DNA from: Octopus vulgaris
Taxonomy: Eukaryota
Reading direction: 5' to 3'
Length of the DNA stretch: 64,000 nt
Assembly: GCA_951406725.2 (NCBI GenBank)
Contig: OX597835.1
Coordinates: 17,422,001 to 17,486,000 of the forward strand
In this document: positions 7,419-61,262 of the stretch, piece by piece
Position numbering within the stretch: position 1 is the first letter of the stretch
How the letters are laid out: each line of letters opens with the position of its first letter
Translations under genes and position numbers: made by a program
The notes under the pieces: model-generated
What the model saw: the letters and a program-made list of their open reading frames with translations, nothing else
What the model was told of the DNA's origin: nothing
The model's database searches: none

Positions 7419-7617
7419 AGTTAATCCAAACACGAAAACACTAAGGGAAAACACAGCAACGCGAGTATGTGGAACAAGTATAGTGTTATTGTACGCTCAA
7501 GAGGATTTAACGTTTCGAGCGGAACTCTTCGTCAGAAACATAGAAAAGGAAAGATCCCAGGAAGGGAAGACGGACGAAAAAAATTATTGCCAACGATACA
7601 CAAGCGGTCGCATATTG
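7419..7617 (-). mobile_element. Short (TA)n-flanked repeat carrying a minimal hammerhead motif (Penelope-like terminus/retrozyme-like)
   Basis: Reverse-complement homolog of 59151-59360; both are flanked by (TA)n. Confidence 0.7.
7505..7539 (-). ncRNA. Minimal type I hammerhead ribozyme motif
   Basis: Minus strand: GUUU-CUGACGA-A-GAGU ucc GCUC-GAAA-C GUU-AAAU. Core intact, 4-bp stems I and II (one G-U each), palindromic AACGUU helix III. Confidence 0.6.
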
Positions 7618-7814
7618 AATCAATATATATATATGTAGCACTATATTATCCAGCAGGGTCTTCATTACTTCAAAACTGTGATTTCCAGATTGCTTGGAAA
7701 ATGTGACTGTTATGTCTAGCAGATAAAAACGACCACATTGACCTTTCATCAATATGTTAGAAGACAAATTTAAAGAGATAAATCGAAAATTAGAAGACAA
7801 AGGGAATTTTTAAT

Positions 7815-8270
7815 AATTCAAATATTAATTAACATATCAAATTTAATTATGTTTTAATTACTACGAGTCAATTATAAATTAACAGCTAAGATTTGATAAT
7901 TAAATAATCAACTAATATTTACTTATTAATTTTATGCCAAAATTTAATTATCAATTAACACTTAGTGTTTAATTATCAATTAATAGCTATGATTTAATTA
8001 TGAATTAATCGTTAAGATTTAATTATAAACCAGGTAGACAAGATTTGATTATTAATTAAAAGCTAAAATTTAATTATAGATTAACAACTAAAGTTTGATT
8101 ATAAGTAACCAGTGGAGATTTAATTAAGAGTTTTAACTACTTTAAATGAGGTGCTTAATAATTAACAGTTACTGTTTAATCATTAATTAATAGCTTAGAT
8201 TTAATGAAGAATTAATAGCAAAACTTTTGTTATTAAGAATGCATTGACAACAAACTAGATTTAATTATAA
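7815..8270. repeat. Degenerate ~25-bp AT-rich minisatellite
   Basis: Recurring unit approximating aagatttaattatcaattaacagct, roughly 15-18 diverged copies. Confidence 0.8.
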
Positions 8271-9261
8271 AGAGGCAGTAAACCGTTGATATGATTCGAA
8301 CCTGTGACCCATCGATTTACAGAATATAACGAAAAGAAGACATTTCCATTGTAAAAAAAAAAAAAAAAAATTCAAAATTCAGTCGAATGTGTATGCGTGT
8401 GGTGTTTTGACTTGCTAAAAATAGCAGCCAAATGAACAATAAATATGCTAAATCACACAGTCTTTAAAAAGGACATACTTCATATAATGCACGAAACACG
8501 ATTTGGTGGAAAAAAAGAAAAATCTGGTGGATGGTCATGGATGGAAGGAGTTAAAACAGAGGCCAACTTGATAAGAACTGAAATGTAGGCTAAGCAACGA
8601 CAGTAGTTGAAGTCGTAGGAGCAATTACCGCCAAAAACGTTGACCCAGCTACCTTTCATGTTATTTGAACCCGCGCCTTCCGCTTCATGTACGCAATATG
8701 TATCTTCTCCTTTATCACGCAATATCAACCTCAGTAAAACAACTGTGGTTTTAATTACAAGTAAAGCTGTTGGGGATTCAGTTTATTGAATAATCAATGA
8801 ATCGATTTAATTAGCTATGTCCTTGATACTATATTTAGATTAGTAACTAATTACCCGTGTTACTTAGTTACACGCCAGCTTTTTGGCGCCAAAGATAAAT
8901 ACTCTTCATTAACATAGTGTGAATTCATCCGTGACGAATATGGATTTAAATGCAGTGAGCATGAAGATACAGACACGAAACGTGGATTTGCATAGATGAA
9001 GTATTTCGTTTGAATACAAGGAACTTAGATTTATATACACGAAACCTGGATTTCAATAGAAGATCTGGATTTACACAGAAGACGAATGTAATATATTATT
9101 GACTTACGTATAAGCAGTGCACATGTATAGAGAGAAACGGCGAGAATTATAAACTGTGCACGATCTAGTTTTTCTTTGATGTTGTAGCAAACCAACGAAG
9201 GCGGGGGCAGCTAAAAATAGCAGTCAGTTTTGAAATGATTAACTTATTCGTCTCAGACGAA

Positions 9262-59150: not shown

Positions 59151-59360
59151 ATGTGACCCTGTGTGTACCGTGGCGATTTTTTTCCTCTGTCTTCCCTTCT
59201 CTGGATCTTTCCTTCTCCTATGTTTCCGACGAAGAGCTCCGCTCGAAACGTTTAACCCTCCTTCTTTCCTTCTTTCCTGAGCGTCCAATAATACTATATT
59301 TGTTCCACGTCCTCGCGTTGTTGTGTTTTCCCTTTTTCTGTTTTCATGTTTGGATTAACT
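59151..59360 (+). mobile_element. Short (TA)n-flanked repeat carrying a hammerhead motif (same family as 7419-7617)
   Basis: Homologous along its length to the reverse complement of 7419-7617; (TA)n on both sides. Confidence 0.75.
59222..59256 (+). ncRNA. Minimal hammerhead motif, U4C core mutant
   Basis: GUUU CCGACGA-A-GAGC ucc GCUC GAAA C GUU UAAC; perfect 4-bp stem II. Confidence 0.5.
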
Positions 59361-60218
59361 ATATATATATATATATATATATATATGTGTGTGTGTGTGT
59401 ATGTGTGTGTGTGTGTGTCTGTGTGTCTGTGTGTCTGTGTGTGTATGAAAGAGTTTTGCAAAGTATTCTTGATGCAGTCGCAATTGTTGAAGAAATATTT
59501 AAAAAAAATAAAAATAAATTAAATGAATAGAGTTTAAGAAACTTATGGACACGAATCTTTTGGTTGTAGGTCTTTCTAATATGTGTGCGTGCTTTCGCTG
59601 TTTAGGTTTTCAAACACACGTGTTGTATATAACACGAATGTTAGAATTATCTTACGAACTTTTATTTTACTTTTATGAAAATACTTCTTCAAACACGTAC
59701 ACGCACGCACGCGAGCACTCACACATTCATACACACACATATACAAACTTATAAACGTATATATATATATATATATATATATATATAGTGCAAGAGAAAT
59801 ATCTATCTATCTATCTATATATTATATATATATATATATATATATATGTATCTACACACACATTCATATACTTACAAGCATAGACTCACATATACGCAAA
59901 CAAGAAGTGGGTCATTTTGCTTCTATATATATATGTATTTATGTATGTATCTCTCTCTCTCTCTCTCTCTCTCTCTCTCTATATATATATATATATATAT
60001 ATATATATATATATATATATATATATATGCAAACGCACACAGATTTCTCTTTCACTTCTACTTTCTCTATCAACTGGCCTAATCGTTCAATCACACAACG
60101 ACTGGTTTGCAGGTTTCTTTGATTTAGTTTGCACTGTTGATAACATCAAACACATCTGGCTCTTCTGCTCGACAAAGCAACCGCTCTGTCAACTCGGAGC
60201 GATATGAACTTCGGAACA

Positions 60219-61262
60219 ACGAGTACATGTCATTGATGAAACTGCATTGAGAAACTCAATGTTGATCTGGGTGACCGGAAAGTAGATCAGGCATTCGATT
60301 ATTTAACCGGTTTGTTAGTTTATCAGTGACTAATAAAAACAACAACACCAGCAATAATAATAATAATAATAATAATAATAATAATAATAAGAAGAAGAAG
60401 AAGAAGAAGAAGAAAAGGAAGTTGTGGTGTTAGTGCACAGGTCTGATTTGTGTAAAAAAGATGACCCACCCACGACAAAGCAACATTCGTTTTATTAATT
60501 AACTTTCAAATCAGATGCGAAAAGAAAATGCTACAGCATATGTGCTTGTGTGTGTGTGTGTGTGTGTGTGTGTGTGTTTCTATGAAGAAATACACTGTTT
60601 GGTTCACTGTTTATCAAAACCATGTCTCTGAGTCTTTTTAGTGGAGGGTTGGGCCTCGAATATATATAATATATATATATATATATATATATATATATAT
60701 ATATATATATATATATATATATATATTTGTAAAAAGAAGTTTGAAAACGCCACTATATTAGATAAATTTTAATTTTCTTATGAATTTTACATGTTTCGGT
60801 TCTTGAAAAAACGAACCTTATCAAAAATATTATAAAAAGTGCAATAGAAAAGTTCATAATCGTTTCTTACTGTTCTCAATAGAATCCATGTGGTGGTGTT
60901 TTGTCGGTAGTTGGTATAATCGCTATATTACTGTTGAGTGTAGTGAAGAAGTCCATTATTGTTTCTTGCTGGTATCAAAAGGAACCGCTTTTTCTGTTAC
61001 CTTGTGTTATATATATATATATATATATATATATATATACCTCTTGGCAAAATGATCCACTTCGTGTTTATGTATATATGAGTGTATCTATGTTTGTAAG
61101 GTTATGTATGTATAAATATTGTTGTTATTAGTTACCTGATAAACTAATGTAAGCGTTAAATAATCAAATACTTGATCTATTTTCCGGTCACCCAGATACC
61201 CAGATCACCATTGATTTTCTCAAGGCCGTTTCAATAAATTATAAATGACACGAGATACTCGT
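60219..61262. repeat. Diverged inverted repeat, arms 60219-60345 and 61119-61262
   Basis: For example gatctgggtgaccggaaagtagatca versus tgatctattttccggtcacccagat; similarity extends over ~130 bp. Confidence 0.85.
60784..60828 (-). ncRNA. Minimal type I hammerhead motif with U3-A8 core variant
   Basis: Minus: AUUU UUGAUAA GGUUC guuuuuucaa GAACC GAAA CAU GUA AAAU. 5-bp stem II, 4-bp stem I, palindromic ACAUGU; lies in a ~280-bp segment bounded by (TA)n. Confidence 0.55.

What the first reader, a model, noticed from the sequence alone, without database searches (positions are those of the whole stretch)
7419..61006. Multiple families of hammerhead-ribozyme-bearing mini-elements living in (TA)n microsatellites
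Seen: six motifs with the order stem I - CUGANGA - stem II - GAAA - short palindrome - GUH - stem I', at 7505-7539(-), 40194-40280(+), 47429-47506(+), 52281-52310(-, decayed), 59222-59256(+) and 60784-60828(-). Helix III is a different perfect palindrome in each family (AACGUU, ACCUAGGU, ACAUAUGU, ACAUGU). Each sits in a ~150-350-bp non-coding segment embedded in or next to (TA)n. Apart from 7419/59151 (and the similar 52230 copy), the segments are unrelated in sequence. Known: minimal type I hammerheads with palindromic helix III, able to cleave as dimers, are features of Penelope-like element terminal repeats and non-autonomous retrozymes, and some Penelope-like elements prefer (AT)n targets. 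Inference: this genome carries several abundant non-autonomous ribozyme retroelement families (about one motif per 10 kb here) that target (TA)n and may help explain its abundance. I cannot tell whether they are already described.
Basis: partly seen in the sequence, partly recalled or inferred. Interest (0 to 1): 0.85.

Follow-up and report, generated by a model that had tools for sequence, protein, structure and literature searches.

The report
Penelope retrotransposon ends carrying variant hammerheads
These six hammerhead-ribozyme-like motifs mark the ends of truncated jumping-gene copies (five from Penelope-like retrotransposons, one from a short protein-free repeat likely derived from them) that sit at TA repeats in what is likely an octopus genome; this arrangement is known, but the commonest family has uridine instead of a normally fixed core adenosine in about 15,000 copies and would be predicted to cut itself poorly or by an altered route.

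Summary
All six motifs are present and belong to five multi-copy families (A-E). They are mostly not non-autonomous mini-elements. Four families (five motifs) are the 3' ends of 5'-truncated Penelope-like elements. Copies of D, E and C follow intact RT/GIY-YIG ORFs of 781, 1,119 and 842 aa; copies of A follow broken ones. D, E and A have a Neptune-type linker; C has Hydra-clade motifs. Minimal palindromic hammerheads, the U3-A8 covariant and (TA)n targeting are all published, including for an octopus Hydra element. Corrections: D is a U3-A8 covariant, not decayed; density in a 400-kb genome sample is about one motif per 31-36 kb, not per 10 kb; only 9 of 279 window TA tracts touch these elements. 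What appears new: family E has U at core position 6 in 14,944 exact genomic matches versus 158 with the canonical A. Position 7 varies freely while G8 stays fixed. Family A mostly has C4. Self-cleavage and expression are untested.

The parts
7420..7619 (-). Family A (older variant): 3' end of a 5'-truncated Neptune-type Penelope-like element, ending at (TA)14
   Evidence: 77% identical to 59151-59360; 79% to the RT-linked copy L293
7505..7539 (-). Minimal type I hammerhead, canonical core CUGACGA, extra A after A9, helix III ACGU, predicted cut 3' of 7509
   Evidence: cleavage site inferred from hammerhead numbering
40117..40477 (+). Family B: 0.8 unit of a 436-nt ORF-less head-to-tail repeat (retrozyme-like)
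   Evidence: longest open frame 58 codons
40200..40274 (+). Hammerhead motif CUGAUGA with long loop II and helix III ACCUAGGU (ACCGGU in the other subfamily); this copy has an A.C mismatch in stem I
47126..47545 (+). Family C: 3' end of a young Hydra-type Penelope-like element, ending at (TA)22
   Evidence: 97-100% identical copies; 95-97% to the end of the 842-aa ORF element L310
47429..47506 (+). Intact minimal hammerhead CUGAAGA, stem I GCGG/CCGC, helix III ACAUAUGU
   Evidence: CUGAAGA in 30 of 34 copies
52230..52380 (-). Family E (old subfamily): internal piece of the 3' repeat of a Neptune-type Penelope-like element; (TA)18 on its 5' side
52281..52314 (-). Hammerhead-like motif with the family's U6 core (CUGUCGA); helix III and stem II decayed in this copy
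59151..59359 (+). Family A: 3' end of a 5'-truncated element between (TA)20 and (TA)13
59222..59256 (+). Hammerhead motif with C4 core (CCGACGA), U.U at the first stem I pair
60726..61007 (-). Family D: 3' end of a Neptune-type Penelope-like element between two (TA)n tracts
   Evidence: 96-99% identical copies; same end lies 3' of RT/GIY-YIG ORFs
60784..60828 (-). Intact hammerhead with U3-A8 covariant core (UUGAUAA), helix II GGUUC/GAACC, helix III ACAUGU

Best explanation
Five of the six motifs are the minimal hammerheads in the 3' terminal repeats of four protein-coding Penelope-like retrotransposon families, left as 5'-truncated copies at (TA)n, and the sixth lies in a 436-nt ORF-less tandem unit likely mobilised by such an element. 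Shown: fixed 3' ends with variable 5' ends, linkage to RT/GIY-YIG ORFs, repeat-ORF-repeat copies, optional 3' tails, back-to-back inverted pairs and TA adjacency. Inferred from published Penelope biology: the element's endonuclease nicks (TA)n, often on both strands. The RT then primes inside the RNA at a short TA-rich stretch just 3' of the hammerhead and usually stops after 150-400 nt, so the hammerhead is what most copies retain. The palindromic helix III would let two motifs in a tandem transcript fold as a dimer and cut. Cutting is predicted to be weak, weakest for the U6 (E) and C4 (A) cores, and is probably not required for each insertion.
For: D: 781-aa RT + GIY-YIG ORF ending about 0.9-1.1 kb upstream of the motif in 7 of the 7 full-ORF loci printed. 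E: L246 and L247 are repeat-ORF-repeat-(TA)n, with 1,200- and 1,119-aa frames and hammerheads at both ends. A: 4 of 19 extended loci have same-strand RT and/or endonuclease hits 1.5-2.2 kb upstream, joined by a shared UTR that is 73-84% identical. C: 842-aa ORF followed by the segment at 97% identity. 58 of the first 100 listed exact C matches are divergent inverted pairs within 12 kb (my count of the listing). (TA)4+ lies within 60 nt of the 3' anchor in A 24/26, B 15/18, C 17/29, D 25/26 and E 9/15 (copies of 30 where the anchor was found), against 11% background. In the genome sample, 8 of 13 motifs have (TA)5+ within 250 nt 3' against 14% background. Structure is kept across lineages: stem I GUUU/AAAC in A versus CUUU/AAAG in E; helix III ACCGGU versus ACCUAGGU in B; loop II of D varies with helix II fixed. 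The same anatomy is reported in PMC4209133 and PMC8557442. Hammerhead mutants did not affect insertion in vitro in PMC11167929.
Against: No cleavage or expression was shown. 15 of 19 extended A loci show no same-strand RT/endonuclease hit near the motif, and the A ORFs seen are broken. No parent ORF was found for B; three Hydra-type 3' ends did not align to it above shuffles. Single-strand MFE folds give the hammerhead helices only in part, and only B folds as the expected dimer. No Rfam family reached its threshold in 5 loci. Clade names rest on motifs, not on a tree with reference elements.
Confidence: 0.88

Rival explanations
1. All five families are non-autonomous ribozyme mini-elements (retrozymes) that spread as short tandem or circular RNAs.
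For: True in outline for B: 13 of the first 30 loci exceed one 436-nt unit and are terminally redundant without an ORF. One copy (L045) starts upstream of the previous unit's predicted cut site, so its template was uncut or rejoined. Many A copies start near the same 5' point (biased by the query).
Against: A, C, D and E continue upstream into long UTRs and RT/GIY-YIG ORFs. None of 60 fetched B loci (at least 7 are places fetched twice) holds two motifs; the longest continuous copy is 653 nt. None of 33 exact B matches lies one unit from another.
Confidence: 0.08
2. In families E and A the motif no longer cleaves; the fold is kept as a protein-binding, dimerisation or RT-positioning signal.
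For: U6 in 14,944 exact matches against A6 158 and C6 340; C4 7,519 against U4 2,632 in A. Changes at position 6 are reported to give low activity (PMC3088659; PMC7151607). PMC11167929 found cleavage unnecessary for insertion in vitro.
Against: G8 is held as tightly as U6 (488 non-G8, 3%) and position 7 is free (U44/A25/C20/G11 in the first 100 rows), which is the pattern of a working core. Natural A6C ribozymes cleave well in Mn2+. Part of the U4 class in A may be CpG decay of C4. This rival concerns function only and is compatible with the origin given above.
Confidence: 0.35
3. U6 and C4 are fixed because the motif overlaps another signal, such as the pyrimidine tract and AG of a spliceosomal 3' splice site in the terminal repeat.
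For: Both cores follow long pyrimidine runs and the first AG falls just after A9 (sequence). An intron end maps to helix I in Drosophila virilis Penelope (PMC4209133).
Against: The whole sense strand of E is pyrimidine-rich, ORF included. No donor site was looked for.
Confidence: 0.08
4. The motifs are chance matches or random decay products in AT-rich repeats.
For: Three of six window copies miss the canonical core; helix I is only 3-5 pairs.
Against: 13 against 0.08 motifs in shuffles; thousands of exact matches with 0 for the reversed control patterns; compensatory changes between families.
Confidence: 0.01

Closest known systems
Minimal hammerheads of metazoan Penelope-like elements (Cervera and de la Pena 2014, PMC4209133)
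   Same: Type I fold, short helix I, extra nucleotide between 9 and 10.1, palindromic helix III, U3-A8 covariant, mostly solitary motifs from truncated copies, opposite-strand pairs.
   Different: U6 and C4 majority cores are not in the parts read or found by a supplement search. B mostly lacks the G10.1-C11.1 pair. Octopus is not named in that supplement.
Neptune/Nematis-type EN+ Penelope-like elements (as described in PMC8557442)
   Same: D, E and A: RT, CX2-5CxxC linker, C-terminal GIY-YIG with two cysteines; terminal repeats, tails and TA bias. D has an overlapping upstream ORF1.
   Different: Long low-complexity 3' UTRs (about 1-2.2 kb). No tree separates Neptune from Nematis here.
Hydra clade, including Hydra-1_Obim of Octopus bimaculoides (PMC8557442 main text and supplement)
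   Same: C has DKT, CxCX5C, CxxC and CxH motifs, no GxKF/Y, a hammerhead near the 3' end and (TA)n targets.
   Different: Different family: other hammerhead sequence (helix III motif not found in that supplement), RWA for RWK, and over 4 kb rather than under 3 kb.
Non-LTR retrozymes (PMC7229834; bioRxiv 10.64898/2026.07.22.740005)
   Same: B is a short ORF-less head-to-tail unit with a type I hammerhead.
   Different: 436 nt, dispersed as at most 1.5 units, minimal rather than canonical motif, no two-motif copy found, circular RNA untested.
Natural A6C hammerhead of phage Bcep176 (PMC3088659, PMC7151607)
   Same: Pyrimidine at core position 6.
   Different: U rather than C, minimal dimer-type fold, and fixed in a lineage with about 15,000 exact matches.

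Membership tests
Minimal type I hammerhead (PLE type) | Core CUGANGA or U3-A8 covariant, GAAA, NUH | tested here: met
   B, C, D and the U4 class of A
Minimal type I hammerhead (PLE type) | Canonical core in families E and A (majority classes) | tested here: not met
   E: U6 14,944 vs A6 158; A: C4 7,519 vs U4 2,632
Minimal type I hammerhead (PLE type) | Helices I and II, palindromic helix III | tested here: met
   All five families, with compensatory changes between lineages
Minimal type I hammerhead (PLE type) | G10.1-C11.1 pair | tested here: inconclusive
   Met in A, E and most D; in C only with a bulge; in B the base before GAAA is A in 21 of 27 parsed copies of 30
Minimal type I hammerhead (PLE type) | Self-cleavage as a dimer | not testable with these tools
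   No assay; MFE dimer folds show the expected form clearly only for B
EN+ Penelope-like element | ORF with PLE-type RT and C-terminal GIY-YIG upstream of the repeat | tested here: met
   D RVT_1 E=1e-6 (just under the Pfam cut-off) and GIY-YIG above it; E RVT_1 above cut-off, GIY-YIG below it; A 50-64% identical to E, broken; C by motifs only, no Pfam hit for its 610-aa part
EN+ Penelope-like element | ORF for family B | tested here: not met
   Longest frame 58 codons; PLE hits near 4 of 30 B loci belong to other insertions or are separated by (TA)n
EN+ Penelope-like element | Terminal repeats from partial tandems, inverted 5'-truncated partners, optional 3' tail | tested here: met
   E repeat-ORF-repeat; C inverted pairs; tails of about 32 nt in D and 70 nt in C and B
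Neptune/Nematis type (D, E, A) | CX2-5CxxC linker and CCHH motif | tested here: met
Neptune/Nematis type (D, E, A) | Placement in an RT phylogeny with reference elements | not tested
   No reference set was fetched
Hydra clade (C) | DKT, CxCX5C linker, CxxC and CxH near the end, no GxKF/Y, no CCHH, (TA)n target | tested here: met
   against the list in PMC8557442 section 11
Hydra clade (C) | RWK motif and length generally under 3 kb | tested here: inconclusive
   RWA; ORF 2.5 kb plus about 2 kb of 3' UTR
Non-LTR retrozyme (B) | ORF-less head-to-tail unit with type I hammerhead | tested here: met
Non-LTR retrozyme (B) | [quoted passage not shown] | tested here: not met
   0 of 60 fetched loci; 0 pairs among 33 exact matches
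Non-LTR retrozyme (B) | Expressed as circular RNA | not testable with these tools
   No run on record as RNA was available

The most novel reading that the evidence does not exclude
The most abundant hammerhead in this genome is a natural U6 core variant (CUGUNGA), fixed across at least four position-7 lineages of a recently amplifying Penelope-like element. It is either a ribozyme that needs the element's protein or a different metal ion, or a hammerhead fold repurposed as a non-catalytic signal. With the C4 core of sister family A and the ORF-less family B, one genome offers a natural series for testing whether Penelope hammerheads must cleave.
Probability: 0.45. Interest if true: 0.6.

Novelty: new variant of a known kind. 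Interest (0 to 1): 0.4.

Why it matters
Mostly it does not change what is known: these are new families of a described system. Two points would matter to specialists. First, why Penelope-like elements keep hammerheads is open: cleavage is weak in vitro and dispensable for insertion in the one reconstituted element. A lineage with intact ORFs and about 15,000 exact U6 motifs makes that directly testable. Second, core-consensus searches and Rfam would miss the two largest hammerhead classes here, so ribozyme counts in such genomes are probably too low.

Tried and rejected
Rfam: the 150 listed of 618 window matches were microsatellite hairpins with no hammerhead among them; 0 matches at gathering score in 5 loci. 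The repeat finder on the window was swamped by microsatellites. Public runs: no RNA holder listed, so nothing is concluded on expression; contig depth was not used. No PLE protein match in the window or the 10 kb on each side. The Hydra-like ORF in L190 was first taken for the parent of C and rejected: it shares no UTR with C loci. A parent for B was sought among three Hydra-type 3' ends without signal. Regexes for B failed and partly in 83, so B cores are read from the alignment. One row of alignment A1 had wrong coordinates and was ignored. A cluster of B 5' ends at the predicted cut site was looked for and not seen in 9 long copies. Earlier notes of this scan: none returned. Literature searches for octopus or cephalopod hammerheads and for U6 cores listed no paper describing these families or a U6 core. 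Lunse et al. on small Penelope hammerhead variants (PMC5785218) was not held, so it may already report such cores; figures and image-only supplements were not visible.
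Full report
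OBSERVATION. The six motifs are at the coordinates given. Three have CUGANGA (7535-, 40207+, 47433+). The others read CCGACGA (59226+), UUGAUAA (60824-) and CUGUCGA (52310-). A strict descriptor accepts 2 in the window against 0.017 in 60 dinucleotide shuffles; an earlier one accepted 1 against 0.025, with 5 of 200 shuffles reaching it. The window lies in a 2.8-Gb assembly of 227 contigs. I infer an octopus from that size, about 30 large contigs, and the only species-named relatives among the 120 listed for the family C protein being from Argonauta; no call names the species.

FAMILIES. Each segment has many genomic relatives: first-look candidates 499 (A, 59151), 1,687 (B), 1,962 (C), 1,545 (D) and 2,386 (E), 40 scored each. 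Exact motif counts are whole-genome: A 7,519 + 2,632, E 14,944 + 340 + 158, C 1,113, D 1,312, B 33 (an older family), each with 0 matches for the reversed control. In motif-sense orientation every family has a fixed 3' end at or near (TA)n and ragged 5' ends. (TA)4+ lay within 60 nt of the 3' anchor in A 24/26, B 15/18, C 17/29, D 25/26 and E 9/15, counting those of 30 loci where the anchor was found, against 11% background. The 11 printed C loci that continue past the anchor carry a 70-nt tail, 10 of them then TA.

LINK TO PROTEIN-CODING ELEMENTS. D: upstream sequence encodes an RT thumb, a CxxxxCxxC linker and GIY-YIG. Many copies keep a 781-aa frame (RVT_1 and GIY-YIG), with an overlapping upstream ORF of up to 479 aa and the motif about 1 kb past the stop. 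E: an RT fragment next to one copy led to L246 and L247, which read repeat - ORF of 1,200 or 1,119 codons - repeat - (TA)n, with the motif in both repeats. A: walking upstream, 4 of 19 loci show same-strand RT and/or endonuclease 50-64% identical to E's, joined to the motif by a shared CA-rich UTR; these ORFs are broken. C: the segment ends an element with an 842-aa ORF bearing DKT, CxCX5C, CxxC and CxH and lacking GxKF/Y, the Hydra-clade list of PMC8557442. By my count 58 of the first 100 listed C matches are back-to-back inverted pairs within 12 kb. B differs: it is a 436-nt unit with no frame over 58 codons, 13 of 30 loci exceed one unit head-to-tail, the longest continuous copy is 653 nt, and none of 60 fetched loci has two motifs. 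One copy runs through the previous unit's predicted cut site. No parent ORF was found.

STRUCTURE IS KEPT ACROSS LINEAGES. Stem I is GUUU/AAAC in A and CUUU/AAAG in E. B has two palindromic helices III, ACCGGU and ACCUAGGU. D keeps U3-A8 and helix II while loop II varies in length and sequence; U3-A8 is a published natural covariant (PMC4209133, PMC3088659), so D is not decayed. E has U at position 6 in 14,944 matches, C in 340 and A in 158; non-G8 forms number 488. Position 7 is U44/A25/C20/G11 in the first 100 listed rows, all from one contig. So source lineages diverged at the one free position and kept U6 as firmly as G8. Copies not selected by a motif-bearing query agree: pyrimidine at 6 in 27 of 30 for E, C4 in 24 of 30 for A. 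In contigs from four runs with four organism labels no other letter reached 10% at core positions 628-634 of L247, and one contig of another label spans the core without a difference; reads under 82% alike were excluded. Against activity: position-6 changes lower cleavage in Mg2+ (PMC3088659, PMC7151607), B mostly lacks G10.1-C11.1, and MFE folds give the expected dimer clearly only for B.

DENSITY AND TA. In 40 evenly placed 10-kb stretches the descriptor finds 13 motifs against 0.08 in 12 shuffles, one per 31 kb; 8 of 13 have (TA)5+ within 250 nt 3' against 14% background. The five families give 11 copies (A 4, E 6, D 1, B 0, C 0), one per 36 kb. The window, at 9.1% TA tracts against 2.7%, is about threefold enriched. 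Only 9 of its 279 tracts lie within 40 nt of the six elements, so recognisable copies explain few tracts; unrecognisably old copies cannot be excluded.

MECHANISM. Shown: anatomy, linkage, junctions and counts above. Inferred: the GIY-YIG domain nicks (TA)n; reverse transcription starts inside the RNA about 60-200 nt 3' of the motif, at a short TA-rich stretch (E's internal continuation begins TATATAT exactly where terminal copies enter (TA)n); most events stop early; priming from both nicked strands gives the inverted pairs. Tandem transcripts would allow dimeric folding through helix III. PMC11167929 reports both-strand nicking, internal initiation, protein-dependent hammerhead cleavage and no need of it for insertion in a lizard element; there initiation was not at target-homologous sequence, so TA microhomology here is my inference.

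KNOWN WORK. Read: PMC4209133 parts 1-2 of 4 and a supplement search; PMC8557442 passages, section 11 and supplement searches; PMC11167929, PMC7229834, PMC6765202, PMC7151607, PMC13282606 and PMC6962438 passages; PMC3088659 passages and section 8; bioRxiv 10.64898/2026.07.22.740005 part 1 of 5. Minimal Penelope hammerheads, solitary truncated copies, tails, inverted partners and (TA)n bias are all there, and Hydra-1_Obim is an octopus element with a hammerhead and (TA)n preference. PMC13282606 counts 31 recently active Penelope-like families in Octopus vulgaris and has no occurrence of 'ribozyme' in its main text. Searches listed no report of a U6 core, but PMC5785218, the paper most likely to hold one, was not available.

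VERDICT. The U6 core of family E is the one result a specialist would want to test. New variant of a known kind; interest 0.4.

Noticed in passing
L351 (G000:C6:50000001-50010000) 8667 and 9029, minus strand; also L377 8152, L379 8363: Another family with a U3-A8 core and helix III ACGCGU; in L351 two complete motifs lie 362 nt apart in an ORF-less-looking tandem ending at (TA)n, a better retrozyme candidate than family B. 4 motifs in 400 kb.
   Followed up: partly
L248 minus strand 1261-3705 and 4390; L375 9253; L057 and L050 upstream of B: Further Hydra-type elements with long-loop hammerheads (helix III ACACGUGU or similar) ending at (TA)n; one has an 815-aa frame.
   Followed up: partly
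L202 1318-2754 and 2676-5018: Family D has a 479-aa upstream ORF overlapping the RT ORF by 79 nt in the -1 frame, a candidate programmed frameshift.
   Followed up: no
L250 1379-1583: An inverted family A end is joined without spacer to a truncated RT whose own 3' end is family E, suggesting a template switch between sister families.
   Followed up: no
L140 minus strand, about 1659: RT sequence joined directly to the family E repeat, an internally deleted copy.
   Followed up: partly
L187 2200-8212: A 6-kb near-palindromic family C insertion with an unrelated rearranged fragment captured in one arm.
   Followed up: no
L366 9826-9881: Two copies of another hammerhead motif (helix III ACAAUUGU) back to back, 55 nt apart.
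   Followed up: no
L188 minus strand 934-1944: A 337-codon frame that looks like BIR repeats of an inhibitor-of-apoptosis protein (my reading of the sequence, not scanned).
   Followed up: no
window 7200-7391: A different repeat begins on the far side of the (TA)14 from the family A copy; similar sequence follows the TA tract in L006.
   Followed up: no
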